NCBI GenBank assembly: GCA_963665325.3
Contig: CAXXWS020000003.1
Span: 736,001 to 800,000 of the forward strand
Direction: 5' to 3'
Source: Alphaproteobacteria bacterium
GTDB taxonomy: Bacteria; Pseudomonadota; Alphaproteobacteria; Bin95
Length of the DNA stretch: 64,000 nucleotides
Shown here: piece by piece, positions 11,141 through 51,324 of the stretch
Numbering within the stretch: position 1 is the first letter of the stretch
Layout: every line of letters starts with the position of its first letter
Translations under genes and position numbers: made by a program
The notes under the pieces: generated by a model
The model's database searches: none
Told to the model about the DNA's origin: nothing
Seen by the model: the letters and a program-made list of their open reading frames with translations, nothing else

Positions 11141-11279
11141 GTCCAGCCTCCCTTAACGCCGCCATTCCGGCAAGAGATACGCGAATCGGCTTCCTAATAC
11201 AGCGCCTTTGCTCTGAACGGTTTAGCGAGAGGCGCGCTAAGGGGCTTTCGCGGGCGGCGGTCGCCGCTATGGTCTCGCC

Positions 11280-11900: not shown

Positions 11901-12101
11901 CACCACCGCCGCCATGCACTTAATCGCTCTTGGGCCTATTTCCGGTTCTCACCGCGGGTTCCCGACAGCGGTGACTGGGGGATGATCAGGTTAGCATAGA
12001 AGCTGGTCATCTGGTGCATATCAGACTACGATGCCCCGAACGCGGGCCGACCCTCAGGAATCGGCCCCATTCTTGTGAATGACGGTTATCGGAACAGCAA
12101 A

Positions 12102-13400: not shown

Positions 13401-13442
13401 GGGGAGGCTTGGCCGCGGCGGAAGGGCCTTTCGCAGTACCCC

Positions 13443-34889: not shown

Positions 34890-35060
34890 GTACTGGCCGG
34901 CGACCATATAGCGGCAGCCGACCTTGGTCGTCCAGCGGACGCACGCCAGGAGACTGTCGACAGCCTTGTGGGCGCACTCCGGCTCATTGGCGGGTTCGAT
35001 GCCGAGAATGAGCCGGGCCATCTCGTCCTTGCTGACACCTTCCCAGCCGGTGGGCATGGC
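34890..35060 (-). pseudogene. DUF2285-like fragment
   Basis: EGVSKDEMARLILGIEPANEPECAHKAVDSLLACVRWTTKVGCRYM resembles the C-terminal half of DUF2285 proteins. Confidence 0.5.
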
Positions 35061-35142
35061 GCTGGCGCTGGAAGATATCGGCTGGGGCACCGCCGATCAC
35101 TGGATGCGGATGCAGTCAAGCTACGTACTTGCGCAGGTGTGA
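35045..35142 (+). pseudogene. HigA antitoxin C-terminal fragment
   Basis: MALALEDIGWGTADHWMRMQSSYVLAQV resembles the HigA C-terminus (MALRL...GTA..W.RMQ..YDLAQ). Confidence 0.6.
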
Positions 35143-37918: not shown

Positions 37919-39577
37919 TCAACCCTTTTCCGATTTGCTCAATACCTCGTTGACCCGCTTCATGGAGTCGCAACAGCTGTCTACAAGTTGAGTGTAGTGC
38001 TGCCTGTAACCACCGTGACTCTCGAAGGCCTGTTCCTTCAAGCGCCGTGCCTCCTGCCCCGCCGCATGCGCGAACTTGCTTCTGTGATCCCGCAGCTCAC
38101 GAAATGGGCGAACAACGGCCGCTGCGCCGTCCTTTCCGACCCCATGTCCCATCAGGCACTTCTCGAGCAGGGTGATAGACCGGTCGTTGTCGTTCAGCGA
38201 CGCCCCAAGTTCCTTTGCGTGCCTGCGCAGCCACCGTTCCTCTAATCCCTCTACGATCAGCCGGTCCAGCCGCTGAATCTCGTTGCGCCATTCGTCGTTC
38301 GATCCGGTCACCGGGTAGTGGGCCCACTGTATCTCATTTTCCGTCCTCAGCTTCCACCAAGGCACTTGTAATCCACTGACCGCCTCCTTCAGGCTTGCCA
38401 GCGGGTTGTGTTCGAAAAATGAAAAATTGCCCTGAAAGTCGGTCTCAAAGGCCCTTTCCGAAATGGGCGCTCTCGGCCGTTCGTTGAACGCCTTCCAGTA
38501 CAGTTGCTCCTCGTGCGGAAGTTGTGCCAGGTAAACCAAGTATGTATGAACCTGATTTGCTTCATTGATATCGTAACTTTGTAAATGCCACGCTCCGCGA
38601 CAGTCGATTGAACGCGCGCTTAATTTATATTTTTCCGTGTCGGCCTTGAATCTCGATAAGACTTCCGACCGAAAGAAAACAGGACTCATCCCAAAAGGCA
38701 AATCGGATTCCGTAAAGTAGTTGGACAGTGCATTCGGAGAACAGGATATCTCTCGTATCTCGTCATTTTTCCAATTGAACGCCAGATAGGTTTCGTACTT
38801 CTTGTGCGTCTCTACGGATTCGCTATGACTGGCCGAGACAGGAGAGAGTTGAACTCCTCCAGCCCAAATCAAATTCCCGTTCTCTTCGCGACACCGGTAC
38901 AACATCCCGCCTTCCGCTTCCTGTATGGATAAATTGATTGGCGAATTGTCCGGATCGGCAAAGTCTATCAGCAGAGCTCTTGACGGTACAAAATCGAACA
39001 TGAACAATAATATGGAATCGGTCATTTCTGCATATTGCGCGAGGCAGTCGTGCTGTATGAGGACAGCCATTTCTCCCGAATCCGTATCCCTCTCAGGCCG
39101 TTCGATCACCTTTACAACTTCCTCTATATCGCCATGCCTATCCAGACGACACCAGGCATTGGGTTCCCGCATGTGGTGCAGATCCAAGACATGTATGAAC
39201 TTCTGCCAAATCTCAACGTAGGGTTTCTTTTCCGGTATTCCGGAAAAGGAACGGAGGAATACAATCTGTTCTCCTGAGGCGATACCGCGATTTCCGAACG
39301 TGGAAAGTGGCGGACCAATGCGGTTCTCGAAGCCAATACTCCAGGAATCAAAGGGGTTACCGTGCCAATTCAGCAAGTCATCGATATTGCGGGAAGTCGC
39401 TACCGCGCGGGGTACCAGCACCCCATGAAGGAACAAGTGTCGGACGCTTGCATAGAGGGCGATATGGTCGCTGCGGACGTTATCGTTCAGGAACTGAATG
39501 AAGTCGGCTTTGGTACAGGGGGAGTTGCCGACTGAGGGATCGGCAAGAGTTCGCAGCCTGTTCAGTATTTTGCTCAT
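37919..39577 (-). CDS. AT-richer hypothetical protein with C-terminal HEPN-like Rx4H motif
   Basis: 552-aa ORF; SPVFFRSEVL..., LP.EEQLYW..FN, and helical C-terminus with ELRDHRSKFAH. Confidence 0.7.
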   Translation of the reverse strand: MSKILNRLRTLADPSVGNSPCTKADFIQFLNDNVRSDHIALYASVRHLFLHGVLVPRAVATSRNIDDLLNWHGNPFDSWSIGFENRIGPPLSTFGNRGIASGEQIVFLRSFSGIPEKKPYVEIWQKFIHVLDLHHMREPNAWCRLDRHGDIEEVVKVIERPERDTDSGEMAVLIQHDCLAQYAEMTDSILLFMFDFVPSRALLIDFADPDNSPINLSIQEAEGGMLYRCREENGNLIWAGGVQLSPVSASHSESVETHKKYETYLAFNWKNDEIREISCSPNALSNYFTESDLPFGMSPVFFRSEVLSRFKADTEKYKLSARSIDCRGAWHLQSYDINEANQVHTYLVYLAQLPHEEQLYWKAFNERPRAPISERAFETDFQGNFSFFEHNPLASLKEAVSGLQVPWWKLRTENEIQWAHYPVTGSNDEWRNEIQRLDRLIVEGLEERWLRRHAKELGASLNDNDRSITLLEKCLMGHGVGKDGAAAVVRPFRELRDHRSKFAHAAGQEARRLKEQAFESHGGYRQHYTQLVDSCCDSMKRVNEVLSKSEKG

Positions 39578-40285
39578 CGATCAAGGATCCCATCCTGTCT
39601 TCGTTTCCACTCCCGGCGAGGGGCCGGTCATGGTTCATAGGATCCGCGACGTTGTCCGGATGCCTGACCGCGAGCCGCGGCGACAGCACGGCTTTCTCGG
39701 GGCCGCCCATAGCGGAGTCGCGGTCTGCCCGCCAGCCGTCGCGGCATTCGCCTCCAATGCGGCAGAGACCGTAATTGGCCTGAGTATACCGGCGCGGGAT
39801 GCAGAATCTCGGTCAAGTAGAGCGAACCGTTCCCCATGGCCGGGCACACACAGCCGACCTCGATGACGGCCACGAGGGAATGGACGCGCGTCAACTCATC
39901 GGCCGTCCGGGTAGTCATCATTGGCCGGGACTGAATTCTGAGTACCCTGACCACCGTATGACGAGGATAGGTTCATCATTGTCCTGCTAGTCAGCCGGGA
40001 AATATTTGCGTCTAGCCTCATGCCTTCTGCTGTTGCCCTGGCTGGTGCAGCGATCCAAAACACCGTTCTGATGGTAAGCTACGATGTACACTGTTTACCA
40101 GACCGTCGGCGGGTGAACCGGTTTCCAACTCGAAGCCAGCCCGTCCGGTTCACCCCGCGCAAGAAAGACGCTGGAACGTCTGGACCTTGAAATATAAGCT
40201 CTCGTCGTCCATCAGGACACCATGAGTCCCTTCGCAATAGTCCCTGTTCCGACATCGTCACGCTACATCAGCGATCCCCCGCTTC

Positions 40286-43200
40286 ATGCATGAACTGCTT
40301 CGCACCGCAACTGCCGAGCTGGCCGCCTTTCTCGCAGCTAACCTACCCGGCCTCGGAGAAGGCTGGTGGGAAACGCATGTCGTCGACCGCCTGAGCTTCC
40401 AGCAGCAGCGCACCGTGGAGGAACGCGGGTTCACCAAGCTGGGACAACTGGATTTCGCCGCACTGCTGCGAATCCTCGACCAGAATTGGTACGAGCTCTC
40501 CCAGGCCCTCAATGTCCCGCGCGAGGGGCGCACCTGGGTCAGGGAACTGCAATCCGTGCGCAATCGATGGGCGCACCTGTCGGCGGCGCCGGTTCCTGCC
40601 GGGGATCTGTACCGCGATGCCGATACCCTAGCCCGCGTTCTGGGCATGCTTGGTGCCGCCCCGGCAGCAGTCGAGGCGGCAGAATCGGCGAAACGACATG
40701 CCCTTTCTGACTTGGCGGCGCCATCCGACGCGCCCCCGAATTCCAAGCCCGATACCGCGAACAACGTCCCGCCAGGCGGCCCGGCAATCCCCGCCGTCGC
40801 TTCACACACCACGACGACGATGTTCAGGGTCGGCGATCTCGTGGCTTTGCGCTCCGACCCGGACACTGTAGTGCCGATCATCGGTGTCACGGCCGGCACC
40901 GCCGAGACCCGCTACCAGGTGTTCCAGGACAGCCGTCAGGCCGCCTACTACGAGAGCCAGCTCCTGCCCCTTGAGCCCGCCGACGAACCTTCCCTACTCA
41001 GCGCCCGCGACCTGCGCGCCCATCTGACCAGCCTGCATCTGCTATCGCTATCCACCGCCAACCTGTATTCGCTGCGATCCGGACGCGTTCACTTCGTGCC
41101 TTATCAGTATCGCCCCGTTGTGAGATTGATCCGGGCCGACCGGCCGCGCCTGCTGATCGCCGACGAGGTGGGCGTGGGCAAGACGATCGAGGCCGGACTG
41201 ATCATCAAGGAGTTGCGGGCCCGGACGGACATCTCTTCGGTTCTGGTCATCTGTCCAAAGGCACTTGTGACCGAACGCAAATGGTTCGTGGAGATGAAGC
41301 GTTTCGACGAGCACTTCGAGGCGCTCGACGGCCGGACGCTCCGTCACTGTCTGCGGGAAACGGACCTGGAAGGCGAATGGCCCGACCGCTATGCCAGGGC
41401 CATCATCCCGTTTTCCCTGTTCGATTCGGACCTGCTATTCGGCAAGGAGGGAAGAGGATCGCGGGCCAACGAAGGGCTGCTCGGCCTCGATCCGCCGCCC
41501 AGGTTCGATCTCGTGATAGTCGACGAGGCGCACCACATCCGCAACGCGGACACCTATCTCCATCAGGCGGTGCGCTATTTCTGCGACCACGCTCAGGCCG
41601 CCGTCTTTCTCACCGCCACTCCGGTGCAGCTCGGCAGCCGGGACCTCTTCACCTTGCTGAACGTTCTGCGACCGGATCTCGTTATCGACCGTCCGAGCTT
41701 CGAGCAGATGGCTGCGCCCAACGGGTTCATCAATGCAGCCGTGGGCCATTGCCGCGCCGGAGTGGATCGCTGGCAGGTCGAGGCCCGCACATGCCTGGGC
41801 CACGCCGCCCAGACCGAGTGGGGCCGGCTGTTCCTGCGAGAATCGCCGGCATTCCAGGACATCTACGATCGCCTGGCGGAGGAACAGATCGACGATGCCA
41901 GCCGCATCCGCATCATCCGGTCGCTGGAGGAGCTCTATACCTTCAGCCCGATGATCAACCGGACCCGCCGCCGGGATATCGGGGAATTCACAACCCGCCG
42001 GCCGGAAACGCTGACGGTCGAGTTCACGCCCGACCAGCGCCGTTTGCATGACGACCTGCTTGACGTCGTGAGCCGCATCCTGGCGCGGGCCCACGGCGAG
42101 CAGAACGTCAAGTTCATGATGACCACGATCCGTCGGCAGGCGGCGAGCTGCCTCTACGGCCTCGCCCCCCTGTTGCGCGAAATGCTCGCCGGAAAACTGG
42201 ACAGCCTCGAAACGATGGACGAAACCGACACCGAGGCCCCTGTCGATGCAGTCTTCCTTGCCGAGATCCGGGCCGATATTGAAGCGCTCCTGAAGCACGC
42301 CGATGATCTCGATCCCCTCGACCCCAAGGTGCAGGCCTTCGTCAGCGTCCTGCGAGACAAGGACCGGATGGCCAACAACAAGGCGCTGGTCTTCAGCACC
42401 TTCCGGCACACGCTCGCTTATATTGAAAAGCACGTCGCGGATGCGGGGCTGCGCTACGGCCTCGTACACGGGGCCGTTCACGACGACCAGCGAGCCCACC
42501 TGCGTCGCCGATTCGCCTTGCCGAAGGACGATCCGGAGGCCCTGGACGTCCTGTTGTCCTCTGAGGTCGGTGGCGAAGGCCTCGACTTCCAGTTCTGCGA
42601 CCTGCTGGTCAACTACGATCTGCCGTGGAACCCCATGCGCATCGAACAGCGTATCGGGCGTATCGACCGCTACGGCCAGCAGAGCCAGAGTGTCGCCATT
42701 GTCAACCTGGTGACGCCCGGCACGGTTGACGCGGATATCTACGAACGCTGCCTCATGCGCATCGGCGTGTTCCATCACGCGGTCGGCGGCAGCGAGGAAA
42801 TTCTCGGCGAGATCACCCGGGAGATCCACAACATCGCCGACAGCTTCTCGCTGACGCCGGAACAGCGTGCCGAGCGCCTGCAGCAACTCGGCGACAACAA
42901 GATCCGCCAAGTGCAGGAAGAAACCGCGCTTGAGGAGAAACAGGCCGAGCTATTCGGCCTGACAGTCCCCAACCAGTCCTGGCGTGAGGAGATCGCGGAA
43001 GCCGAGAGCTTCTGGCTGTCTCCGGAAGCCCTGCAACGGTGCGTTACCGCCTACCTGGCAGGCGTCGCGGAGACCGATGGCGATTTTCTGCTTGGCGAAA
43101 AACCCCTCAAGACTCTGCGTCTCGGCCAGAAGATCCGGGCCAGGCTGCTCGGCGACCTCCGCAGCCAGCCCCGATCCACCGACCCTGTCGCCCGGCAATG

Positions 43201-43870
43201 GGAAAAGTGGCTCAGAGGCGCCGACCCGTTGTTGCCGGTCACCTTCGACCACGAAACTGCTGCCGCCGAGCCCAAGGCCGTCTATCTCAACGTCCTGCAT
43301 CCCCTGGTCAGGCAGGCGGCGCGGCACCTGCAACGTTCCCAAGCGGTGCAGGTGAGTCTGATCGCCTCAAGCGAAGCTGTCCCACCGGGCGAATATCCCT
43401 TCGCCCTTTACCAGTGGCGCAATGTCGGCATTCGCTCCAATGACACGCTGATGGCGGTCACCTCAGACCCCGAGCTCGACAGCGCAGTGATGTCCCTGTT
43501 GGAAGTCGCGGCCGACGCGCCCACCGGCACCCCACCCGACGCCGCTGCAATCGAACGGCTCGACAAGAGGCACCACGGTGAATGGCGCGCCGCGCGCGCA
43601 AACCATATGGCGGAGAACCGGGAACTCGTTCAACACCGACGGCAAAGCCTGAGCACCAGCCACGGGGCCCGATGCAAGCTGTTGGAGGACCAGATCGGAA
43701 CCGCGACGAATGACAAGATTCGCCGGATGAAGGAAGGTGAATTGGCGCGCGCCAACTATGACTATGAGCACCGGGTCGCCGAGTTGGAGAGGCTGGCGGA
43801 AAGCGCCGACATCCACGCCACCTTGATCGTCGAAGGCATGCTTCGAGTCACGCGGGACGACGTGGCGTGA
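40286..43870 (+). CDS. Swt1-like HEPN fused to SNF2/RapA-like helicase
   Basis: N-terminal LDFAALLRIL..NW...ELQSVRNRWAH (HEPN Rx4H). SF2 motifs LIADEVGVGKT, IVDEAHH, LTATP, LVFSTF, GGEGLDFQ, WNPMRIEQRIGRIDRYGQ. Confidence 0.9.
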   Translation: MHELLRTATAELAAFLAANLPGLGEGWWETHVVDRLSFQQQRTVEERGFTKLGQLDFAALLRILDQNWYELSQALNVPREGRTWVRELQSVRNRWAHLSAAPVPAGDLYRDADTLARVLGMLGAAPAAVEAAESAKRHALSDLAAPSDAPPNSKPDTANNVPPGGPAIPAVASHTTTTMFRVGDLVALRSDPDTVVPIIGVTAGTAETRYQVFQDSRQAAYYESQLLPLEPADEPSLLSARDLRAHLTSLHLLSLSTANLYSLRSGRVHFVPYQYRPVVRLIRADRPRLLIADEVGVGKTIEAGLIIKELRARTDISSVLVICPKALVTERKWFVEMKRFDEHFEALDGRTLRHCLRETDLEGEWPDRYARAIIPFSLFDSDLLFGKEGRGSRANEGLLGLDPPPRFDLVIVDEAHHIRNADTYLHQAVRYFCDHAQAAVFLTATPVQLGSRDLFTLLNVLRPDLVIDRPSFEQMAAPNGFINAAVGHCRAGVDRWQVEARTCLGHAAQTEWGRLFLRESPAFQDIYDRLAEEQIDDASRIRIIRSLEELYTFSPMINRTRRRDIGEFTTRRPETLTVEFTPDQRRLHDDLLDVVSRILARAHGEQNVKFMMTTIRRQAASCLYGLAPLLREMLAGKLDSLETMDETDTEAPVDAVFLAEIRADIEALLKHADDLDPLDPKVQAFVSVLRDKDRMANNKALVFSTFRHTLAYIEKHVADAGLRYGLVHGAVHDDQRAHLRRRFALPKDDPEALDVLLSSEVGGEGLDFQFCDLLVNYDLPWNPMRIEQRIGRIDRYGQQSQSVAIVNLVTPGTVDADIYERCLMRIGVFHHAVGGSEEILGEITREIHNIADSFSLTPEQRAERLQQLGDNKIRQVQEETALEEKQAELFGLTVPNQSWREEIAEAESFWLSPEALQRCVTAYLAGVAETDGDFLLGEKPLKTLRLGQKIRARLLGDLRSQPRSTDPVARQWEKWLRGADPLLPVTFDHETAAAEPKAVYLNVLHPLVRQAARHLQRSQAVQVSLIASSEAVPPGEYPFALYQWRNVGIRSNDTLMAVTSDPELDSAVMSLLEVAADAPTGTPPDAAAIERLDKRHHGEWRAARANHMAENRELVQHRRQSLSTSHGARCKLLEDQIGTATNDKIRRMKEGELARANYDYEHRVAELERLAESADIHATLIVEGMLRVTRDDVA

Positions 43871-46800
43871 GCGTCATTGAACGGGTTCGCCAGGACCGCG
43901 AGGATCTTGCCCGCGTCCTGAAGAAACATGCCGGTATCCGCAGGATCGTCGAAGACCTCTATCCGGATTCCGCGCATTTCATATACGAGTTGCTCCAGAA
44001 CGCCGAGGACACAGGGGCGACCGAGGCCGCATTCGTCCTTACCGCGGACAGACTCGTGTTCGAGCACAACGGCCGCACGTTCGACGAAGCCGACATCCGC
44101 GCCATCACCGATATCGGGGAGGGCACCAAGGCGGAGGACGACGAGCAGATCGGCCGCTTCGGCATCGGCTTCAAGGCTGTGTTCGCCTACACGGAGACGC
44201 CGCGCATCTGGTCGCCGAGCTATGCCTTCGAGATTTCCGAAATGGTGCTCCCGTCGGAGATTCCATCGGACCCGAGCCTGGGCGATCGCACGCGGTTCGA
44301 GTTCCCGTTCAACTCTGGAAAGAAGCCACAAGACCAAGCCTTCTCTGAGGTGCAGGACGGCCTGGAAGAGATTTCCGACAACACGTTGCTGTTCCTCTCC
44401 AACATCGAAGAGATCCAGTGGCGGATCGACCGCGGTCGGGAAGGCCGGCTGCTCCGAATACTGCACACGGATCATCACATCGAGATTCTTCGGGAGATCG
44501 ACGGCAGGCCGACCGAAAGTGCAAGTTTCCTCCGCTTCACTGAACCGGTCGACGGATTAGAGCGCCAACACGCTGCCGTCGCCTTCGAACTCGAGCCCGT
44601 GTCCAGGAACGACCCGTTAATCGGGCTCACCCCCTTCGCAAAGAAGTTTCGGATTGCTCCCTCGGAACGTGGATGCGTCGCGGTCTATTTCACGGCAGCG
44701 AAGGAAACTTCGAATCTGCGCTTCCATCTCCACGCGCCGTTCGTCCCGGAACTCAGCCGCTCCAGCATCAAGGAGACGCCGGCGAACGCCCCGCTCTTCG
44801 CACAACTCGCCGGGCTCGCGTCGGAATCGCTGTCGTCAATCCGCGATCTCGGCCTGCTCGACCGGGAGTTTCTCGCCGTCTTGCCGAACAGCCAGGATGA
44901 AATCCCCGGCCAGTACGCGCCCATCCGCGACGCCATCGTCGACGCGATGAACGAACGCACGCTTACTCCCAAGCACACCGGCGGCCATGCCCCGGCCGGC
45001 CGATTGCTGCAGGCGGAGGCCGGATTGAAGGATCTGCTGGATCGCGAGGACATCCACTTCCTGGTCGACACCGACGACGACCCGCGAGACTGGGCGATCG
45101 CCGCGACGCAAAGAAACAGCCGTGTCGACCGCTTCCTCCGCGGTCTCGATATCCAGCAATGGGGAGTGGAACAGTTCGTGGAGGTCCTGGACGAGCGTTT
45201 CTCCAACAAACGCCGACTCTGTTATTCGACCTACACCTGGAAGCAGGGGCCCGACGGTCCGTTTCTCGACTGGATGCGCCCGAAACCGGCAGAGTGGCAC
45301 CGCGCACTGTATGCCCTTTTTCATCGGGAACTGGAAGACGAGCTGAACCTCTTCGACCAAATCTGCATCGTCAGGCGCTCGGACGGCGAATATGGGACTG
45401 GCTGCGAATCCTACTTCCCGACCCCTGAGACTCGCGAAGACCCCATTCATCCCCGCGTCGCAGAAGACACATATGCAGGTGGAGGAACTAGAACCGAGCA
45501 GACGCGCGCCAGGGCATTCCTGGAAGGCGTCGGCGTCCGCGAGGTGGGAGAATTCCAGCAGATTGAGGCTATTCTCGAACGGCGATATGCGGACCCCGCC
45601 CGCGTCCCACCCTGGCAGACCCATCAATCCGACCTGAGGCGCTTCATAGCCCTCGTGGAAAAGGACCGGAGCGCGAGCACCCTCTTCAAGAACTATTTCA
45701 TCTTTCAGGGAGCCAACCGTCTCTGGTCCCGACCAAGCGATCTGTACCTCGATGCGCCTTATCTCGAAACCGGGCTGAAAGCCTACTACGGCCCCTTCGC
45801 GCCAGAGGCCAGCCGCGCGGAATTGTCGGACGGCTATCGCACCTTCGAGATGCTACCGCAGCTTATCAAGTTCGCGCAGATGTGTGGCGCCACCAACCGA
45901 TTACCAATTGCGACCGTCAGTTGCACCGACAACCCCGAAAAGGAACATCTACTCAGTGCTCCAGGGTCAGTTCTGACCCAAACCGGAATCGACACCGACT
46001 TTGCAATTCCCAAGCTCGACGTCATGTTCGAGACACCGAATCTGGCTCTTTCCTGTCTCGTCTGGAACGCCCTATGTGACCGTTCGCACGACAAGAGCAT
46101 CCTGAAGGCCACCTTTCGATACAACCAATCCAACTACCATCACTCGGCCGACTCGCAGCTCGTTCACCAGTTGCGTAACGCTGCCTGGGTTCCTCAGGGA
46201 GACGATGTATTCGTTCACCCCGCAGAGGCCCTGAGAGATTTGCTGCCTGACGGCTTCCCGTTCGATCCCGGTTGGGCCTGGCTGACTGCCATCCGCTTCG
46301 GCGAAGAGACCGAAAAGCGGGCCGCGTACCTTCGCAGGACCCAGGAAATCGCTGTCGAACTCGGCTTTCGAGACGAGGCCGCGCTCGCAGACGGCATGCG
46401 ATTTGCGGATCTGGCGCCAGATACTCGGCAGAGAATCCTTGCAGAGTACGAGAGTCAGGTCGACTTGCCCGTCCACGAACCCGGAAATCCCGACCGAAGG
46501 GCCGAATCAGTTCGGGAAAATGCTCGCCAAGCGCCTGAGCGTAGAACCGAGAGGCGTGAGCGAGCCGTTTCCGTCAACCGCGATCCGACCAAGAGAGAAG
46601 AAACTGCTCCCTATCTGCGGGAACTCTATACCAACGCCGACGGCGTTACCATCTGCCAAGCGTGCAAAGATCGCCTCCCCTTCAGGCTTGCCGATGGAAC
46701 CTACTTCTTCGAGGCGGTGGAGTTTCTCCCGGACCTGGAGCGGCACCACTATCAGAACTACCTCGCCCTATGCCCGAATCATGCGGCTATGTTCATGCAC

Positions 46801-46956
46801 GCCAACGCCTCGAAGGACGAGATGACGGCCGGGTTTCTCGCCCTGGATGGCAACGAACTGACGTTGACGCTCGCCGACAAACCGGTGACCGTCTATTTCA
46901 CCGACACGCATATCGCTGATCTCGCCGTCGTCATCGACGTCGACGACCAAGACTAA
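43867..46956 (+). CDS. sacsin-like GHKL ATPase with C-terminal HNH-like domain
   Basis: HFIYELLQNAED, FEHNG..F, IGRFGIGFKAVF, FHLHAPF. C-terminal CQAC...FFEAVEF...NYLALCPNH. GTGA overlap with the helicase stop. Confidence 0.85.
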   Translation: MSVIERVRQDREDLARVLKKHAGIRRIVEDLYPDSAHFIYELLQNAEDTGATEAAFVLTADRLVFEHNGRTFDEADIRAITDIGEGTKAEDDEQIGRFGIGFKAVFAYTETPRIWSPSYAFEISEMVLPSEIPSDPSLGDRTRFEFPFNSGKKPQDQAFSEVQDGLEEISDNTLLFLSNIEEIQWRIDRGREGRLLRILHTDHHIEILREIDGRPTESASFLRFTEPVDGLERQHAAVAFELEPVSRNDPLIGLTPFAKKFRIAPSERGCVAVYFTAAKETSNLRFHLHAPFVPELSRSSIKETPANAPLFAQLAGLASESLSSIRDLGLLDREFLAVLPNSQDEIPGQYAPIRDAIVDAMNERTLTPKHTGGHAPAGRLLQAEAGLKDLLDREDIHFLVDTDDDPRDWAIAATQRNSRVDRFLRGLDIQQWGVEQFVEVLDERFSNKRRLCYSTYTWKQGPDGPFLDWMRPKPAEWHRALYALFHRELEDELNLFDQICIVRRSDGEYGTGCESYFPTPETREDPIHPRVAEDTYAGGGTRTEQTRARAFLEGVGVREVGEFQQIEAILERRYADPARVPPWQTHQSDLRRFIALVEKDRSASTLFKNYFIFQGANRLWSRPSDLYLDAPYLETGLKAYYGPFAPEASRAELSDGYRTFEMLPQLIKFAQMCGATNRLPIATVSCTDNPEKEHLLSAPGSVLTQTGIDTDFAIPKLDVMFETPNLALSCLVWNALCDRSHDKSILKATFRYNQSNYHHSADSQLVHQLRNAAWVPQGDDVFVHPAEALRDLLPDGFPFDPGWAWLTAIRFGEETEKRAAYLRRTQEIAVELGFRDEAALADGMRFADLAPDTRQRILAEYESQVDLPVHEPGNPDRRAESVRENARQAPERRTERRERAVSVNRDPTKREETAPYLRELYTNADGVTICQACKDRLPFRLADGTYFFEAVEFLPDLERHHYQNYLALCPNHAAMFMHANASKDEMTAGFLALDGNELTLTLADKPVTVYFTDTHIADLAVVIDVDDQD

Positions 46957-47237
46957 CTCTATTTTCCTCCTGCTCCTGCCGGAGTGCGAAGGGCGCGCGA
47001 CTCCCTAACGACCAGCGCACCGACCCCACCCTCTCGGCGGCCGTCGTTCTCTTCCTGCCCCGACCGGCATCCCGGTTGCTCAGCCCACGTCTTCACTCGT
47101 CACTCCTCGGTCCGCCTGAGCCGCGCCTCGCAGCACCTCCACCGACTGCGACACCGGCCGCCTGCCCGGCATTCCATCTCGTTTCGCGACACGCGACCTG
47201 AATCGGGAACGGCGGTCGGACTCCGGGCGCGCCGGAT

Positions 47238-47526
47238 CTACGACGCGCTCCCCGCGTTCACGGCATCCCTCAACGGCTTGCCGGGCTTGAACGTCGGTGC
47301 CGGTCGAGGCGGCGATGTTCAGGCTCTCGCCGGTCCTTGGATTGCGCCCTGTGCGCGCGGTACGGCTTCTGGTGCCGAAGGTGCCGAAGCCGGCGATCCG
47401 CACATCCTCGCCACTGGCCAGCGAGTCGCCGATCGCCTCGAACACGGTGTCGACCGCCGCTTCGGCCTCGGCCTTGCGCAGCCCCAGCCTGGCCGCCACC
47501 AGGCCGCCGATGTCCGCCTTGTTCAT
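47238..47526 (-). pseudogene. hup: HU DNA-binding protein with a single 1-nt frameshift
   Basis: MNKADI...V.IAGFGTF....R.ARTGRNPRTGE.LNIAAST, one extra base near 47301, then APTFKPGKPLRDAVNAGSAS-TAG. Span is 289 nt (96x3+1). Confidence 0.8.
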
Positions 47527-47832
47527 CCCTCGCTCCCTGTAGCGCCGCCGGCGGGCGATGCGCACCAAATTCCCGACCGCGCGCCACCGACCTCGGACGC
47601 GACGCACTCCGGCAGGATCCACGCGAGACAAACACCTATCGTGTAACGCCCCCGATTCCCATCCCGCCGGCCCCTGCATCCCATTTTCACGCGACCGCCC
47701 ATTCGCTCCGTCCACGCACTACGGGCAGCGGCGGTGCATCCGCCCCGGAAGGAGGCCGTGGCCAGCCTCTGTCGGGGCGCATTCGGGGGCCGGAGAGCGG
47801 TTTCCGCACACCGCCAACCGGGAGACCCGTCC

Positions 47833-48690
47833 ATGGCCGCCGATCCCACCGACATTCGCGTTCCTTCCGAGTGCAGGGAAATGATCCGGGCCGGCGCTCT
47901 CGTGGCGGTCAATCACAGCGGTGGCAAGGACTCCCAGGCCATGACGATCCTGCTGTCCAGCATCGTTCCCCGCGATCGGCTCATTGTAGTTCACGCCCCT
48001 CTCGGCGAGGTCGAGTGGCCCGGCACGATCGAGCATATCGAGAACACGATTCCCCAGGGAGCTCCGCTCATCATGGCCCCCGTTGCCTCCGGAAAGACCC
48101 TGCTCGAACAGGTGGAGGCGAGGGGGATGTGGCCGTCGGGATCAGCCAGGTGGTGCACGTCGGGCACAAAACGCGGACCCATCGAGCGCGAACTGCGCCG
48201 CTATCTGAAAGCCCATCCGCGCTTCAAGGGACGGCTCGTCAACGCCCTCGGGCTTCGCCGCGACGAGAGCCACGACCGCGCGCGCCGCGTCCCCTGGCGG
48301 CGCAACGAGCGCATGAGCGTTGCCGGACGGGAGGTCTTCGACTGGCTGCCCGTTTTCGAACTCGCGACCGAGGACGTGTTCCGCATCATCGCCGAGGCCG
48401 GCCAGTCGCCGCACCCGGTCTACTCGTTCGGGCTGACGCGCTGCTCGTGCTCGTTCTGCATCTTCTCGTCGCGTTCCGACCTGCGCCGCGCGGCGGAGCT
48501 CCGTCCGGACCTCTACGCAAAATACGCGCAACTCGAACGGCGCATCGCCCACACGCTCTCGCCCACACGGAAGTATCTGCCGGAGCTGACCGGCATTCCG
48601 GTCGATAGCGCTGTCCGCACGCCGCTTCGGCCCCGAGGCCGCAAAGGGGATTGCCCGCGGCGACCCCGGGCCCGGTCAGTTTCGAGCTAG
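47833..48690 (+). CDS. phosphoadenosine-phosphosulfate reductase family protein (PP-loop)
   Basis: VNHSGGKDSQA, RWCTSGTK..PI, GLRRDES..RA, HPVY..G.TRCSCSFCIF. Confidence 0.85.
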   Translation: MAADPTDIRVPSECREMIRAGALVAVNHSGGKDSQAMTILLSSIVPRDRLIVVHAPLGEVEWPGTIEHIENTIPQGAPLIMAPVASGKTLLEQVEARGMWPSGSARWCTSGTKRGPIERELRRYLKAHPRFKGRLVNALGLRRDESHDRARRVPWRRNERMSVAGREVFDWLPVFELATEDVFRIIAEAGQSPHPVYSFGLTRCSCSFCIFSSRSDLRRAAELRPDLYAKYAQLERRIAHTLSPTRKYLPELTGIPVDSAVRTPLRPRGRKGDCPRRPRARSVSS

Positions 48691-48966
48691 CGGTGCCCCG
48701 TACCGGGCGGTCTCCCAGACCGCGCGGCTCTCCGGGTGGCGGCGCATCCAGTCGCGGTAGCCGTCCATCTTCCGCTTCCAGTCGATCTTGCCGCCCACAT
48801 ATTCGCCGGTTTCATCGATGACGCCGCACTCAAGCTCCGCCGCCGTCAGGTGCCACCACATGTCGACGTCGGCGGCGAGCTGCTCCTCGCTGATGCCATC
48901 ATGCGCCAGCATCTTCGCGCAGAGGGCGCGCGCGACGGCCTCGATGTTGTCGCTCCAGCTTGCCAT
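48676..48966 (-). CDS. hypothetical protein
   Basis: MASWSDNIEAVARALCAK...WETARYGAPLARN; globular composition, 96 aa. Confidence 0.55.
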   Translation of the reverse strand: MASWSDNIEAVARALCAKMLAHDGISEEQLAADVDMWWHLTAAELECGVIDETGEYVGGKIDWKRKMDGYRDWMRRHPESRAVWETARYGAPLARN

Positions 48967-49220
48967 GCCGCAAGTTAACGCCGTCTCGCCGAGCGCTGCA
49001 AGGCGCCCGTCAACCTCACGCAGCAGCCGCGCCGGGGCCACTTGCGCCGTTGTGCGCGGACGCCGCCGAGCGTCACGCTCCAGCGTCACCCCCAAACCGT
49101 CATCCGGCCAGCCCGATGCCGTCCATCCACCCGGAGTGGAGGCCGGCTCCGGCGGGGGCGAAGGCCGGGCGCCCGGAGGAGGCGGCCCGCGCCGCTTTCC
49201 CGCCATTCCGGAGCATGCCC

Positions 49221-50246
49221 ATGACCTTGCCTGAGACCATCTCCGCCGACTACACGCTGCGCCCGAGCGAGCTCGCCGAGGTGCTCGCCCTGCTGGTCGA
49301 GGCCCGACAGCCCACGATGGTGTGGGGACCGCCAGGGGCGGCCAAGTCGATGATCGCCCGGCAGGTCGCCACGACCGCCAACCGCCAATATGTCGACGTC
49401 CGGGCGCTTCTCCTCGACCCCGTGGACCTGCGCGGCATCCCGTGGCGCGACAGCGCCGACCGCACGCGCTGGGCGCCGCCGGTGTTTCTGCCGCCATCGG
49501 ACGATCCCGGTCTCTGGCTCATCAACCTTGAAGAGCTACCGTCGGCGGTGCCGATGGTGCAGGCCGCCCTCTACCAGCTCTTCCTGGAGCGCAAATGCGG
49601 CGAGTACGCGCTGCCCGAGGGCGCATCGTTGATCGCCTGCGGCAACCGGGATGCCGACCGCGCCGTCGTCCACCGCATGCCGACGCCGCTCAGCAACCGC
49701 CTGGTCCATCTGGAGATCCGCGTCGACGCGAAAGACTGGTGCGCCTGGGGCGCGGCGAACGGGATCGCCCCGGAAGTGCTGTTCTTCATCGAGCTCGAAC
49801 CCGACCTGCTTCACGCCTTCGAGCCCCAGTCGAAGGAGCACGCCTTCCCGAGCCCCCGCAGCTGGGAGTTCGCCAGCAACATCGTCAAGTACCGCAACGG
49901 CCTCGATCCGGAGGTCGAGCGGGCACTGTTCCGGGGCACGGTCGGCGAGGCCGCGGCGGTGCAGTTCACCGCGTTCCTGAAGGTCTGGCGCGAGCTGCCC
50001 CATCCGAGGGCCGTCATCAACGACCCGACGAACGCCGACATCCCGGAGAACGCCAGCACGCTGATGGCGCTCTGCGGCTCGCTCTACCGCATGGCCTCCG
50101 ACGTCACGCTCGATGCGATCGTCACCTACGCCACCCGGCTCCGCCGCGAGGTCGGAGAATCGCTGGTCGGCGCCTGCGTGCGCCGCGAGCCGGCGCTCCA
50201 GCGCTCACCCGCCTTCATCCGCTGGGCGGCGGCTAGGACCCAGTGA
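49221..50246 (+). CDS. MoxR/CbbQ-like AAA ATPase (mobile-element type)
   Basis: WGPPGAAKS, DPVDLRGIP, LEEL..A.P.VQAALYQL, GNRD.DRA....MP.PL.NR, FPSPRSWE. Confidence 0.88.
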   Translation: MTLPETISADYTLRPSELAEVLALLVEARQPTMVWGPPGAAKSMIARQVATTANRQYVDVRALLLDPVDLRGIPWRDSADRTRWAPPVFLPPSDDPGLWLINLEELPSAVPMVQAALYQLFLERKCGEYALPEGASLIACGNRDADRAVVHRMPTPLSNRLVHLEIRVDAKDWCAWGAANGIAPEVLFFIELEPDLLHAFEPQSKEHAFPSPRSWEFASNIVKYRNGLDPEVERALFRGTVGEAAAVQFTAFLKVWRELPHPRAVINDPTNADIPENASTLMALCGSLYRMASDVTLDAIVTYATRLRREVGESLVGACVRREPALQRSPAFIRWAAARTQ

Positions 50247-50409
50247 AGGAGGACGCCATGTACTGATGGATCACACACCGCCCGGCGGGGGATGTCCCGT
50301 CGCGCAGGTACGCCGTGCGGGCCCCGAGCCTCGACGCGGCCAGGCGGAAGCTTGCCGCCTTTCTCGACGTCCCCGTGTGGACGCTCCGCTAACCCGAGAG
50401 GAGGATTTC

Positions 50410-51324
50410 ATGGACCTCAACCGCGACGCCATGCTGGTCGGCCTGCACATCGCCGCCTGGTCCGGCCGGCTCTACGACCGCCAGGCGAGCGACCACGTCG
50501 CCGTCGCCCACGAAGCCTCGACCGGCGCCGGGCGCTACAACAAGCGCCTGCTGCCCAAGGCCGCCTTCGCCGCCCTCACCGCCACCATGAGCGAAGCGAG
50601 AACCAGGCACTATGCCAACTCGCTGCCCTGGGACGACAAGGGCGCGCGGCTGCTGACGGTCGCCAACTACGAGCACTACACCGAGCTGATGGACGGGCTG
50701 CGCGAGCGCGTGGTGCGCCAGCGCGCCCGCTTCATCGAGGACTACGACGACTATGTCGACCAGTCCCGGCTCGACCTCGGCAAGCTGTTCCGCATCGAGG
50801 ACTATCCGTCCAAGGAAGACCTCCAGGGCAAGTTCGCCATCCGCTACCGCATCACGCCGGTGCCGGATGCGGACCACTTCATCGCGCAACTCGCCTCCGA
50901 CGACACCGAGCGGGTGAAGCGCGACATCGAGCGCCATGTCGAGGAACAGCTCCATGGTGCGGTGGGCGACCTCTACCGCCGCATGGCCGAGGCGGTCGAA
51001 CGGGTCTCCGAACGGCTTCAGGAGGACGGCGACGGCAAGCCGCTGGTGTTCCGGGATTCGATGATCGGCAACATTCGCGACCTGGTCGACGTGGTTCCGC
51101 GTCTCAACATCTTCGGCGACGACGAGCTCGCCAGTCTCTGCGAGCAGGTGAAGGAGAAGATCGCCATGGTCGAGCCGGACGCGCTGCGGCCGTCGAAGAC
51201 CTTCGACCCGGCGGCCCGGGCCCAGGTCAAGCGCGACGCCGACGCGCTCGCGGAGAAGTTCGCGGGGTATTTCGGGGCGCGCGCCGAACAGCCTGCCGCC
51301 GAGCCCGTGCGGGAGGCCGCCTGA
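50410..51324 (+). CDS. DUF3150-like protein
   Basis: AMLVGLHIAAWSGR..D...,KRLL, LPW.D.G.RLL, F...DYPS...L..KF; GAGGA RBS; sits between the AAA and VWA genes. Confidence 0.65.
   Translation: MDLNRDAMLVGLHIAAWSGRLYDRQASDHVAVAHEASTGAGRYNKRLLPKAAFAALTATMSEARTRHYANSLPWDDKGARLLTVANYEHYTELMDGLRERVVRQRARFIEDYDDYVDQSRLDLGKLFRIEDYPSKEDLQGKFAIRYRITPVPDADHFIAQLASDDTERVKRDIERHVEEQLHGAVGDLYRRMAEAVERVSERLQEDGDGKPLVFRDSMIGNIRDLVDVVPRLNIFGDDELASLCEQVKEKIAMVEPDALRPSKTFDPAARAQVKRDADALAEKFAGYFGARAEQPAAEPVREAA

What the first reader, a model, noticed from the sequence alone, without database searches (positions are those of the whole stretch)
40286..46956. Candidate undescribed defence system: HEPN-SNF2 helicase coupled to a sacsin-like GHKL ATPase-HNH
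Seen: two large genes overlapping by GTGA inside a tRNA-linked island. Gene 1 (1194 aa) fuses a Swt1-like HEPN with an intact Rx4H motif (RNRWAH) to a complete SNF2/RapA-type helicase. Gene 2 (1029 aa) has a sacsin/NOV-type GHKL ATPase (ELLQNAED, GRFGIGFK) and a C-terminal Zn-bound HNH-like domain (CQAC...LCPNH), whose usual E-x-H-H reads EAVE. Known: HEPN RNases, SNF2 helicases (DISARM DrmD, Zorya ZorD), GHKL ATPases and HNH nucleases are recurrent defence modules. No methyltransferase or ZorAB partner is adjacent, and I do not recognise this pair as a named system. Inference: a two-ATPase sensor/translocase with RNase and DNase effectors.
Basis: partly seen in the sequence, partly recalled or inferred. 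Interest (0 to 1): 0.82.

Follow-up and report, generated by a model that had tools for sequence, protein, structure and literature searches.

The report
HEPN-helicase plus Tiamat-like ATPase pair
Two overlapping genes, a DNA-tracking motor with an RNA-cutting head and a large ATPase related to the anti-phage protein Tiamat, form a mobile two-gene cassette that is probably an untested bacterial immune system of a recently catalogued type.

Summary
Gene 1 (40286-43870, 1194 aa) is a Swt1-type HEPN domain with an intact R-x4-H motif, fused to a complete RapA/DrmD-like SNF2 helicase. Gene 2 (43867-46956, 1029 aa) is a sacsin-type GHKL ATPase ending in a zinc-knuckle HNH fold without the catalytic histidines. 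The genes overlap by GTGA.

The pairing is not chance. A DrmD-like SNF2 gene lies directly upstream, on the same strand, in 65 of 77 assessable related loci. Homology to the closest copies stops about 120 bp before gene 1 and 0-220 bp after gene 2, so a ~7-kb cassette moves alone. Here it sits in a ~114-kb integrative element at tRNA-Met.

It is not an undescribed kind. Gene 2 shares about 800 residues of ATPase and core with GHKL-DUF3883 (Tiamat-type) proteins and hits PADLOC TmtA models. A preprint of 1 October 2026 defines Tiamat-like "Type IV-A" (dead HNH-like fold) and "Type IV-B" (with a helicase-nuclease neighbour). This scan had also met the family before, on other DNA.

No member has been tested. 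The most likely function is an ATP-gated DNA sensor and translocase whose working nuclease is the HEPN RNase, not the HNH domain. The full-length fold did not finish and the complex prediction never ran.

The parts
40169..47179 (+). Whole mobile two-gene cassette: the extent of DNA homology to the closest copy in another genome.
   Evidence: blastn of the window against L002 gives 40169-47179, 89.5% over 7023 columns. The left edge recurs at 40174 (L008) and 40168 (L004). No flanking homology was found.
40286..43870 (+). Gene 1: HEPN-SNF2 helicase, 1194 aa.
   Evidence: ORF, translation, Pfam. The best PADLOC model is DrmD at 372 bits. NCBIfam DrmD scores 323 bits, below its cut-off of 610.
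40319..40645 (+). Swt1-type HEPN domain (residues 12-120). The R-x4-H motif RNRWAH is at 40559-40576.
   Evidence: Pfam PF18731, 55 bits against a cut-off of 27.5. R92, N93 and H97 are invariant in 34 homologues.
40793..41071 (+). Small beta-rich domain (residues ~170-262) present in every partner helicase, with or without HEPN.
   Evidence: blastp among the N-terminal regions of helicases with different heads; conserved motifs. A Tudor/SH3-like fold is only my inference, by analogy with BrxHII-type helicases (PMC12839542, passages read).
41072..42835 (+). SNF2 motor (residues 263-850): Walker A GVGKT (K299), DEAH 413-416, motif VI QRIGRIDRYGQ.
   Evidence: Pfam; conservation; RapA is the closest solved relative.
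42836..43867 (+). DrmD-like C-terminal region of the helicase (residues 851-1194); function unknown.
   Evidence: The PADLOC DrmD model covers residues 238-1078 and NCBIfam DrmD covers 669-1164. Median identity to the window is 42.5%, against 60.7% for the motor.
43867..46956 (+). Gene 2: Tiamat-like sacsin-type GHKL ATPase with a C-terminal degenerate HNH domain, 1029 aa.
43936..44226 (+). GHKL (Bergerat) ATP-binding core, residues 24-120. E41 and N45 form motif I; D76 and G96/G99/G101 are also conserved.
   Evidence: Pfam SACS and NCBIfam; sacsin SRR structures 5v44-5v47, E 5e-18; invariant residues.
43885..46290 (+). ATPase plus middle core shared with GHKL-DUF3883 (Tiamat-type) proteins, residues ~7-808.
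   Evidence: hhalign of profile A2 against the Sulfuricurvum pSULKU01 'DUF3883 domain-containing protein': probability 100, E 2.5e-62, columns 7-808 against 3-776 of 1006. BLASTP gives 25% identity over 824 columns.
46585..46953 (+). HNH-fold domain without catalytic histidines (residues ~907-1029). Putative Zn ligands are C930, C933, C969 and H972. E949 and H1015 are invariant; D1018 is kept in 43 of 47.
   Evidence: McrA HNH profile match, E 2.3e-6; column counts. AF2 model: pLDDT 88.3, pTM 0.80. VIA-align: EcoKMcrA Z 6.8 and TagI Z 6.7, followed mostly by HNH nucleases. The best Foldseek E is only 9e-3.
33382..33458 (+). tRNA-Met(CAT): the left attachment site of the ~114-kb integrative element that carries the cassette.
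   Evidence: ARAGORN. Its 3' ~45 nt recur with one mismatch at G000:C4:~883390-883434, where there is no tRNA gene. A tyrosine integrase lies at C4:882130-882621 on the minus strand.

Best explanation
A self-contained two-gene defence cassette against phages or other mobile elements, of the Tiamat-like kind. It most probably matches the 'Type IV-B' neighbourhood of the October 2026 preprint, and it is carried here as cargo of an integrative element.

Shown:
- Gene 2 is a Tiamat-type GHKL ATPase with intact ATP-site residues. Its usual PD-(D/E)xK nuclease is replaced by an HNH fold that keeps its zinc knuckle but lacks the catalytic histidines.
- Gene 1 is a DrmD/RapA-like SNF2 motor with intact ATPase motifs and an N-terminal HEPN domain with an intact R-x4-H site.
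- The two genes are co-inherited and move together.

Inferred mechanism:
- The two proteins work as one machine. The SNF2 motor translocates on double-stranded DNA.
- The GHKL protein is an ATP-gated dimerising clamp or sensor. It holds DNA or a phage-made ligand through its middle region and the dead HNH domain.
- On recognition of foreign DNA, ATP-driven closure brings two helicase subunits together. HEPN RNases need a dimer to form their active site, so this would switch the RNase on.
- The RNase then cuts RNA and stops the infected cell or the invader, an abortive-infection-like outcome.
- No methyltransferase is present, so self/non-self discrimination would not rest on methylation.
For: Pairing:
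- An SNF2 gene lies directly upstream, on the same strand, in 65 of 77 assessable loci out of 87 fetched. This includes 6 of the 7 genome loci; L007 is too short to assess. Two IMG/VR contigs show the same pair.
- 21 loci show the same 4-nt stop/start overlap.
- No third gene is conserved across the set.
- Homology to the closest copies ends at the cassette edges.

Kinship to Tiamat:
- PADLOC TmtA models hit at up to 179 bits.
- hhalign to a GHKL-DUF3883 protein gives E 2.5e-62 over about 800 residues.
- B. cereus Tiamat defends against T5 and T6, and E44A abolishes protection (preprint introduction citing Millman 2022; passage read). The equivalent E41 is invariant here.

Active sites:
- HEPN R92/N93/H97 and the SNF2 motifs are invariant.
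- The HNH catalytic positions are lost across the family.

Context and evolution:
- Defence-type neighbours occur in 12 of 38 flanked loci and mobile-element hallmarks in 16 of 38 (no control). Examples are AbiE, type I R-M, GmrSD, BrxC/D, DUF499+DUF1156 and DndB.
- Lamassu-like genes lie beside the Rhizobium plasmid copy.
- Distribution is patchy: 6 of 400 other genomes of the phylum at E<=1e-50, and a full match in 1 of 16 other same-genus genomes, where the copy is decayed.
- The helicase head is swappable: HEPN, an unknown ~170-aa domain, DUF2283 or nothing. This is typical of defence effector shuffling.
- Gene 2 and the helicase C-terminus evolve faster than the motor. The motor is the more conserved in 41 of 41 loci.
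Against: - No member of this subfamily has been tested. I found no experiment in the two Tiamat/NOV preprints, the HEPN census, or the BREX/Hma paper (passages and sections read).
- Physical binding of the two proteins is not shown.
- At least 17 partner helicases have no HEPN by tblastn or Pfam: 14, plus L068, L083 and L086. In these the cassette has no recognisable intact nuclease, so HEPN cannot be the universal effector.
- One clade of gene-2 homologues (9 sequences in the tree, support 100) sits with a DNA methylase, and in 8 of the 9 also with a type III Res-like helicase-nuclease. That points to DNA restriction rather than RNA cleavage as the family's core business.
- The counts of defence neighbours have no control.
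- The metagenome loci are the best 80 of 552 confirmed hits, so they are biased towards closer relatives.
Confidence: 0.6

Rival explanations
1. A DNA-restricting machine. A non-canonical DNase does the killing, and HEPN is only an optional back-up suicide module. The DNase could be the HNH-like domain using E949/E952/H1015/D1018, or a nuclease-like fold in the DrmD-type C-terminus of the helicase.
For: - E949 and H1015 are invariant, and D1018 is kept in 43 of 47 homologues.
- The preprint notes that PacI cuts DNA without the canonical HNH residues.
- Helicases without HEPN are common.
- A sister clade sits in methylase + Res-type operons.
- B. cereus Tiamat is a DNase (abstract).
- HEPN is read as a back-up effector in Hma/BR systems (PMC12839542).
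Against: - The general-base histidine position is V/T/I in 45 of 47 homologues, and the metal-binding histidine is A/S/G in 47 of 47.
- No nuclease family matches the helicase C-terminus in Pfam.
- There is no methylase to protect the host's own DNA.
Confidence: 0.22
2. Not phage defence. The pair serves the mobile element that carries it, for example by excluding competing plasmids or ICEs, or by processing or remodelling element DNA.
For: - Here it lies in a ~114-kb integrative element next to DUF932/TIGR03299, ParB-like and RadC genes.
- 16 of 38 flanked loci carry relaxase, integrase, TraG, ArdC or transposase genes.
- Copies occur on rhizobial plasmids, one of them conjugative.
Against: - The cassette moves independently of any one element.
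- It also lies beside classical anti-phage systems.
- Defence genes are usual cargo of such elements (general knowledge).
- Anti-plasmid activity would still count as defence.
Confidence: 0.1
3. A remnant or orphan of DISARM (DrmD) that happens to lie beside an unrelated ATPase.
For: The best PADLOC model for gene 1 is DrmD at 372 bits, and NCBIfam DrmD is its top hit.
Against: - NCBIfam DrmD scores 323 bits against a cut-off of 610.
- The whole, 100%-complete genome has no DUF1998/MZB domain, the DrmA/DrmB hallmark, while the control search found it in 8 of 14 reference genomes.
- No methylase or PLD gene is adjacent.
- The pairing with gene 2 is conserved in 65 of 77 loci.
Confidence: 0.03
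4. A housekeeping pair: a RapA-like transcription recycling factor with an Hsp90/sacsin-like chaperone.
For: RapA is the closest solved relative of gene 1, and sacsin/Hsp90 of gene 2's ATPase.
Against: - It is rare and patchy, sits on mobile DNA and is decayed in a congener.
- NCBIfam RapA scores 182 bits against a cut-off of 576.
- It carries HEPN and HNH modules.
Confidence: 0.02

Closest known systems
Tiamat-like 'Type IV-A' protein and 'Type IV-B' neighbourhood (Yuan et al., bioRxiv 10.64898/2026.09.30.754977, 1 Oct 2026; outline, sections 21 and 23 and passages read; figures and supplements not visible)
   Same: [quoted passage not shown]
- A neighbouring helicase fused to a nuclease domain.
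- Swi/Snf is named among the associated SF2 helicases.
   Different: - The text I could read does not say which helicase or nuclease makes up IV-B. HEPN is mentioned only for sacsin.
- Identity with IV-B is therefore probable but not verified.
- The preprint reports no experiment on this type.
Tiamat (TmtA), a single-gene anti-phage system (Millman et al. 2022, as cited in the preprint; PADLOC models PDLC03964-03972)
   Same: - Sacsin-type GHKL ATPase with the same motif I glutamate (E44 in B. cereus, E41 here).
- About 800 residues of shared ATPase and middle core.
   Different: - The C-terminal DUF3883 PD-(D/E)xK nuclease is absent and replaced by a degenerate HNH domain.
- The protein is shorter (1029 aa, against PADLOC TmtA models of 1063-1782 positions).
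- It is almost always partnered with an SNF2 helicase rather than standing alone.
DISARM DrmD (SNF2 helicase)
   Same: Gene 1 resembles DrmD from the small beta domain through the motor into the C-terminal region.
   Different: - It scores below the NCBIfam DrmD cut-off.
- It carries an N-terminal HEPN domain.
- No DrmA/B/C or methylase is present, and there is no DUF1998 anywhere in the genome.
Hma, or Type-1 DUF499-centred BREX-related system (PMC12839542; PMC3710099)
   Same: A Swt1/Abi2-type HEPN domain is attached to an NTPase in a cassette that also holds an SNF2 helicase. There, HEPN is read as a back-up suicide RNase.
   Different: - There HEPN sits on a DUF499 STAND ATPase, the helicase carries DUF3883, and a methylase is obligatory.
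- Here HEPN sits on the helicase, the second ATPase is GHKL, and there is no methylase.
Prokaryotic MORC/paraMORC GHKL ATPases in R-M-like operons (PMC2292703; search listing only)
   Same: A GHKL ATPase coupled to SF2 helicases in conflict systems.
   Different: They belong to a different GHKL clade. The preprint's tree places Tiamat and sacsin apart from the classical GHL families (figure legend read). MORC/paraMORC operons usually contain methylases.
EcoKMcrA and TagI HNH domains (PDB 6ghc, 6ghs)
   Same: They are the best sequence and fold matches of gene 2's last ~120 residues: E 2.3e-6, and Z 6.8 and 6.7.
   Different: McrA's catalytic EVHH and CPNCH read EAVE and CPNHA here. McrA and TagI are active modification-dependent nucleases.
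Eukaryotic sacsin
   Same: The same ATPase family (5v44-5v47, E ~1e-17). Sacsin also combines this ATPase with a HEPN domain.
   Different: Sacsin has three ATPase repeats, a J domain and a C-terminal HEPN of another HEPN family, all in one chain. Here HEPN is on the partner helicase.

Membership tests
Tiamat (TmtA) sensu stricto | N-terminal Hsp90/sacsin-type GHKL ATPase with the catalytic glutamate | tested here: met
   Pfam SACS 76 bits; NCBIfam 97 bits against a cut-off of 50. E41 and N45 are invariant in 47 of 47 homologues.
Tiamat (TmtA) sensu stricto | Middle core (DUF3684 region) | tested here: met
   hhalign to a GHKL-DUF3883 protein over columns 7-808, E 2.5e-62. PADLOC TmtA PDLC03972 aligns residues 22-574. 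No hit of E <= 0.1 to any Pfam family other than SACS and HATPase_c_3.
Tiamat (TmtA) sensu stricto | C-terminal DUF3883 / PD-(D/E)xK nuclease | tested here: not met
   Homology to the DUF3883 protein ends at about residue 808. The C-terminus is an HNH fold instead.
Tiamat-like Type IV-A (preprint) | Tiamat ATPase and core, with an HNH-like fold lacking catalytic residues in place of the nuclease | tested here: met
   The definition was read.
Tiamat-like Type IV-B neighbourhood (preprint) | A Type IV protein with a conserved neighbouring helicase fused to a nuclease domain | tested here: inconclusive
   An SNF2 gene is adjacent in 65 of 77 loci, 37 of them with HEPN by tblastn. The text does not name the IV-B helicase or nuclease, and Figure 6b and the supplements were not visible.
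DISARM | DrmD at equivalog level | tested here: not met
   NF038317 scores 323 bits against a cut-off of 610.
DISARM | DrmA/DrmB (DUF1998), DrmC and a methyltransferase in the locus | tested here: not met
   No PF09369 match in the complete genome. No methylase or PLD appears among the neighbouring ORFs.
Zorya | ZorA/ZorB motor proteins with ZorD | tested here: not met
   ZorD models give only weak motor-level hits: 63 bits in PADLOC, and 26 bits in NCBIfam against a cut-off of 1500. No PADLOC hit to ZorA or ZorB among the neighbours.
Hma / Type-1 BR system | DUF499 ATPase, DUF1156 methylase and SNF2-DUF3883 helicase | tested here: not met
   Neither is present among the window's neighbours. 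HmaA matches only through the motor, at 141 bits.
HEPN RNase (Swt1/Abi2 clade) | R-x4-6-H motif in an all-alpha domain | tested here: met
   PF18731, 55 bits; RNRWAH, with R92, N93 and H97 invariant. RNase activity itself cannot be tested with these tools.
HNH (beta-beta-alpha-Me) nuclease | The fold | tested here: met
   McrA profile match, E 2.3e-6. VIA Z 6.8 (rmsd 3.6, 85 aligned) and Z 6.7 (rmsd 3.3, 96 aligned), followed mostly by HNH nucleases. Foldseek is weak, with a best E of 9e-3.
HNH (beta-beta-alpha-Me) nuclease | Catalytic His on strand 1 and metal-binding His/Asn on the helix | tested here: not met
   Position 951 reads V40/T3/I2/H1/K1 and position 973 reads A35/S9/G3, out of 47 homologues.

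The most novel reading that the evidence does not exclude
A methylation-independent immune machine in which ATP-driven dimerisation of a Tiamat-type GHKL clamp is the switch. The clamp would read DNA through a nuclease-dead, McrA/TagI-like HNH domain. Its closure would bring together two HEPN heads riding on SNF2 translocases, turning DNA sensing into RNA destruction. This would give the first mechanism for helicase-partnered Tiamat-like systems. It would also give a functional reason why sacsin-type ATPases and HEPN domains recur together from bacteria to human sacsin.
Probability: 0.2. Interest if true: 0.7.

Novelty: new member of a known kind. Interest (0 to 1): 0.45.

Why it matters
Tiamat is a validated anti-phage protein whose mechanism is still poorly understood. 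Its relatives include plant NO VEIN and human sacsin.

The helicase-partnered form with a dead HNH domain is widespread. 1516 cluster representatives match gene 2 at E<=1e-30. No member of this form has been tested.

This window offers a clean, intact, compact example of about 7 kb with every ATPase and HEPN catalytic residue in place. It suits tests of three questions:
- whether such pairs defend at all;
- which domain is the effector;
- how a system with no methylase and no evident DNase tells self from non-self.

The swappable helicase head (HEPN, an unknown domain, DUF2283 or none) and the sister clade embedded in methylase/Res operons show how the module is re-used. For annotation, both genes are currently labelled 'hypothetical protein' and 'helicase-related protein' in RefSeq plasmid records.

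Tried and rejected
Searches and predictions that failed or did not finish:
- The search for homologous proteins on gene 2 timed out. I used the search of protein representatives instead.
- Structure prediction was not accepting jobs. The full-length gene 2 job had not finished after 12 collection attempts. No full-length model or fold search of the middle region is therefore reported.
- Complex prediction (helicase 640-1194 with gene 2 590-1029) was never queued, because the queue was full. There is no verdict on binding.

Analyses that gave nothing:
- No RNA holder was listed among the 22 sequencing runs, and read laying was not used.
- The sigma-70 scan found no promoter-like site in 39400-47800. 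Terminator-like sites were at shuffle level, 7 against 5.9.
- Pfam finds no HNH family in gene 2 or in 47 homologues at E<=0.1. The HNH link needed a profile search against the PDB and a fold search.
- There is no repeat of the tRNA 3' end inside the window. It lies 114 kb away.
- A search for a region of gene 2 specific to SNF2-partnered rather than Res-partnered homologues gave no signal.
- The phage collection held only one partial hit. IMG/VR gave 19 loci, of which only two carry the pair.
- Atlas and cluster look-ups gave only 'hypothetical protein'.

Literature and readings considered and rejected:
- Searches for the pair used the terms HEPN+SNF2+sacsin; sacsin+GHKL+helicase+defense island; HmaA/HmaC/Snf2/antiphage; and MORC+restriction-modification+GHKL+superfamily II helicase+sacsin. 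They returned no description other than the October 2026 preprint.
- DISARM, Zorya, Hma and a housekeeping RapA were considered and rejected (see Membership tests).
- The 82-bp match between window 35056-35137 and L003 looks, by eye, like the 3' end of a HigA-like gene and not a cassette boundary.

One search was meant for PADLOC but was run with Pfam. The neighbour counts therefore rest on Pfam names as I read them.

Full report
**Observation**

The window has about 70% G+C, falling to 55-63% between roughly 37 and 47 kb. Two long ORFs lie on the + strand at 40286-43870 (1194 aa) and 43867-46956 (1029 aa). They share the four bases GTGA, and both show the codon-position G+C pattern of real genes.

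Gene 1 carries a Swt1-type HEPN domain at residues 12-120 (55 bits, cut-off 27.5). An SNF2 motor follows: SNF2-rel_dom at 288-476 and Helicase_C at 681-797. Its best PADLOC model is DrmD at 372 bits, but NCBIfam's DrmD equivalog scores 323 bits against a cut-off of 610. RapA is the closest solved relative.

Gene 2 has a sacsin-type GHKL ATP-binding domain (Pfam SACS 76 bits; NCBIfam 97 bits against 50; sacsin structures at E ~1e-17).

**The catalytic sites**

In 34 aligned HEPN-helicases, R92, N93 and H97 are invariant. So are the Walker A lysine, DEAH and motif VI. In 47 full-length homologues of gene 2, the GHKL residues E41, N45, G96, G99 and G101 are invariant.

The C-terminal domain is a true HNH relative. 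A family profile finds the HNH domain of E. coli McrA at E 2.3e-6. An AlphaFold2 model of residues 880-1029 (pLDDT 88.3, pTM 0.80) is closest to EcoKMcrA (Z 6.8, rmsd 3.6, 85 aligned) and TagI (Z 6.7, rmsd 3.3, 96 aligned). A list made up mostly of HNH nucleases follows. Foldseek ranks the same proteins first, but weakly (best E 9e-3).

The zinc knuckle is kept: C930, C933 and C969 are invariant, and position 972 is H in 26 and C in 20 of 47. The catalytic positions are not kept. McrA's EVHH aligns with EAVE: position 951 is V40/T3/I2/H1/K1 and position 952 is E37/Q8/S1/A1. The last histidine is A35/S9/G3. So the HEPN, SNF2 and GHKL sites look active, and the HNH site looks dead or non-canonical.

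**Is the pair real?**

Gene 2 belongs to a large family. 6978 cluster representatives match at E<=1e-3 and 1516 at E<=1e-30. Most of the top 150 are about 1030 aa and align end to end.

I fetched 7 genome loci and 80 metagenome loci (the best 80 of 552 confirmed hits, so biased towards closer relatives). Ten of the 87 have too little upstream DNA to assess. Of the remaining 77:
- 65 have a DrmD-like SNF2 gene directly upstream on the same strand.
- 37 of these have HEPN by tblastn, 14 do not, and 14 were scored by my coordinate rule as running off the contig at the helicase N-terminus. Three of those 14 are in fact complete ~970-1040-aa helicases without HEPN (L068, L083, L086).
- 21 loci repeat the 4-nt overlap.
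- No third gene is conserved across the set.

Two IMG/VR contigs also carry the HEPN-SNF2 + gene 2 pair. Three rhizobial plasmids carry more distant copies, and the two I inspected have them next to 'helicase-related protein' genes.

DNA and translated comparisons with the closest copies show homology only from about 40168-40174 up to 46947-47179, with none in the flanks. The closest copies are in Rhodobacteraceae/Paracoccaceae, Binatia and Planctomycetia MAGs. The unit of transfer is therefore a ~7-kb two-gene cassette.

**Variation**

The helicase head is modular:
- HEPN_Swt1 in most.
- An unrelated ~170-aa domain in L016, L019, L021 and L047. In L016, L021 and L047, an extra conserved ~255-265-aa ORF ends at the helicase start.
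- DUF2283 in L051.
- No head at all in helicases of about 965-1040 aa.

A small beta-rich domain (residues ~170-262) precedes the motor in all of them.

Twelve assessable loci lack the SNF2 neighbour:
- In nine, gene 2's homologue follows a 907-aa type III Res-like helicase (with a weak TnsA-like match in some).
- Eight of those nine, plus L033, also carry an N6_N4 DNA methylase. L033 has a different, divergently oriented SNF2-HTH gene.
- L056 and L085 have neither.

In a tree of 48 gene-2 proteins, the nine methylase-context sequences that were included (eight with the Res-like helicase, plus L033) form one clade. Its support is 100, and it nests among SNF2-partnered sequences under a midpoint root. 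Rows with ORFs under 950 aa, or outside my two context lists, were left out of this tree.

The motor is always more conserved than gene 2: median identity 60.7% against 40.1%, and higher in 41 of 41 loci. The helicase C-terminus, at 42.5%, tracks gene 2.

**Context**

tRNA-Ile and tRNA-Ala (29773-29993) and tRNA-Met (33382-33458) mark the end of what I take to be an rRNA operon (inference). The last ~45 nt of tRNA-Met recur with one mismatch 114 kb downstream, where there is no tRNA gene. A tyrosine integrase lies just inside that repeat. The cassette is therefore cargo of a ~114-kb integrative element. The visible part of that element holds DUF932/TIGR03299, a PAPS-reductase-like gene, an AAA + DUF2201 pair, a ParB-like protein, a transposase + ATPase pair and RadC.

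Around related copies I scanned 130 flanking ORFs from 38 loci. Four loci were dropped to fit the size limit. By my reading of the Pfam names, and with no control:
- Defence-type genes occur in 12 loci: AbiEi/Eii twice, type I R-M four times, GmrSD+HNH+WYL, DUF2357, BrxC/D, DUF499+DUF1156, DndB+GHKL, and an AAA_21/15 ATPase.
- Mobile-element hallmarks occur in 16 loci.

The Rhizobium plasmid copy abuts a Cap4-nuclease + SMC (Lamassu-like) set.

The family is rare and patchy. It matches at E<=1e-50 in 6 of 400 other genomes sampled from the phylum, and only one of those matches is full-length. Among 16 other genomes of the genus it appears once, as a decayed copy with a truncated helicase and a frameshifted gene 2.

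**What is known**

PADLOC's only hits for gene 2 at E below 0.01 are nine TmtA (Tiamat) models, at up to 179 bits. A profile of the family aligns with a GHKL-DUF3883 protein of a Sulfuricurvum plasmid over columns 7-808 against 3-776 of 1006, at E 2.5e-62. That protein lies next to a NERD gene and a Qat system. Only the last ~220 residues differ.

The preprint by Yuan et al. (10.64898/2026.09.30.754977; outline, sections 21 and 23 and passages read) makes these points:
- B. cereus Tiamat is an ATPase and an ssDNase.
- It gave modest defence against T5 and T6, and E44A abolishes that defence (citing Millman 2022).
- 'IV-B' is listed among the neighbourhoods with a helicase, and among those whose helicase is fused to a nuclease. 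Swi/Snf is among the SF2 partners.

The text does not say what the IV-B nuclease is. HEPN is mentioned only for sacsin. I could not see the figures or supplements.

Other papers do not describe this pair. These are the HEPN census (PMC3710099), the BREX/Hma paper (PMC12839542) and the NOV preprint. In Hma/BR systems the same HEPN clade sits on a DUF499 ATPase and is read as a back-up suicide RNase.

This scan had already noted the family on other DNA. Finding e1-2174888 describes a sacsin-type ATPase with a dead HNH domain next to an SNF2 gene, and e1-783463 is related. My counts agree with them independently.

**Mechanism**

Shown: three intact catalytic modules (HEPN, SNF2, GHKL), one degenerate module (HNH), strict co-inheritance, and mobility.

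Inferred: the two proteins act together. The SNF2 motor tracks dsDNA. The GHKL protein is an ATP-gated dimerising clamp that recognises DNA or a ligand through its middle region and the dead HNH domain. Closure pairs two HEPN heads, which need dimerisation to form an active site (general knowledge, also stated in the preprint). This would unleash RNA cleavage and an abortive-infection-like arrest.

Against this reading as a general rule, many partners lack HEPN, and a sister clade is wired into methylase/Res operons. The core activity of the family may therefore be on DNA, with HEPN as an add-on. I give 0.6 to the overall reading as a defence cassette of this kind. Within that, roughly one third goes to the specific HEPN-switch mechanism and 0.22 to the DNase rival.

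**Verdict**

The claim that the system is undescribed is not. This is an intact, well-placed member of a very recently catalogued, experimentally untouched Tiamat-like subtype. The HEPN head on the helicase is the feature least covered in print.

Noticed in passing
window 33459-64000 and beyond (G000:C4:769459-883434): A ~114-kb integrative element lies at tRNA-Met. The tRNA's 3' ~45 nt are repeated with one mismatch 114 kb downstream, with no tRNA gene there. A tyrosine integrase lies just inside the distal repeat. Visible cargo includes DUF932/TIGR03299, ParB-like and RadC genes. I did not look for conjugation genes.
   Followed up: partly
window 37919-39577 (-): A 552-aa ORF in the lowest-GC stretch of the island, divergent from gene 1. 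It has no Pfam, PADLOC or NCBIfam match, and the nearest Atlas clusters are 'hypothetical protein'. It is not conserved next to the cassette elsewhere.
   Followed up: partly
window ~11000-14000: A second low-GC stretch (0.54-0.56, against ~0.70 around it) far from the finding. Not examined.
   Followed up: no
window 47734-52733: Three genes lie just after the cassette: a PAPS-reductase-like gene with weak BrxP/SspD/DndC PADLOC hits (47734-48690), an AAA ATPase (48960-50246) and a DUF2201 metallopeptidase/VWA protein (50292-52733). They might be another conflict module.
   Followed up: no
window 56829-59134: An rve-type transposase (491 aa, best hit IS481 family, below cut-off) followed by an AAA ATPase. 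This looks like a Tn-type pair inside the element.
   Followed up: no
L008 9202-11388: In a Paracoccaceae MAG, gene 2 is interrupted near residue 937 by a ~2.2-kb insertion. The two blastn pieces overlap by 10 bp in the window's coordinates (46669-46678), which suggests a target-site duplication.
   Followed up: partly
L005 4963-10526: In a Binatia MAG, a deletion joins helicase residues 1-1013 to gene 2 from residue 190. It removes the helicase tail and the GHKL ATP site, so this is a broken copy.
   Followed up: partly
L114 (G012:C1:1188000-1203000): The only other copy found in 16 other genomes of the genus is decayed. The helicase matches only from the middle of the motor onwards, and gene 2 is split at residue 426. 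No tRNA is nearby.
   Followed up: yes
L016 2620-3417, L021 2644-3417, L047 2653-3420: In the subgroup whose helicase carries the unknown ~170-aa head instead of HEPN, an extra ~255-265-aa ORF with no Pfam family ends exactly at the helicase start. It may be a third component of that subtype.
   Followed up: no
L032, L034, L036, L038-L040, L042, L043, L046 (and L033): A clade of gene-2 homologues (~47% identical to the window's) follows a 907-aa type III Res-like helicase, and most of these loci also hold an N6_N4 methylase (L033 has the methylase but a different SNF2-HTH gene). In some loci there is also an Abi_C protein, an AAA_13 ATPase or a RecB-like nuclease-SF1 helicase.
   Followed up: partly
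L091 5173-5703, L092 3660-4214: The rhizobial plasmid copies have a ~180-aa ORF overlapping the helicase start. By eye it looks like a sigma-factor/HTH regulator, but it has no Pfam hit.
   Followed up: no
window 35056-35137: An 82-bp stretch is 87% identical to the DNA just upstream of the cassette in L003. By eye it reads as the 3' end of a HigA-like HTH antitoxin gene.
   Followed up: partly
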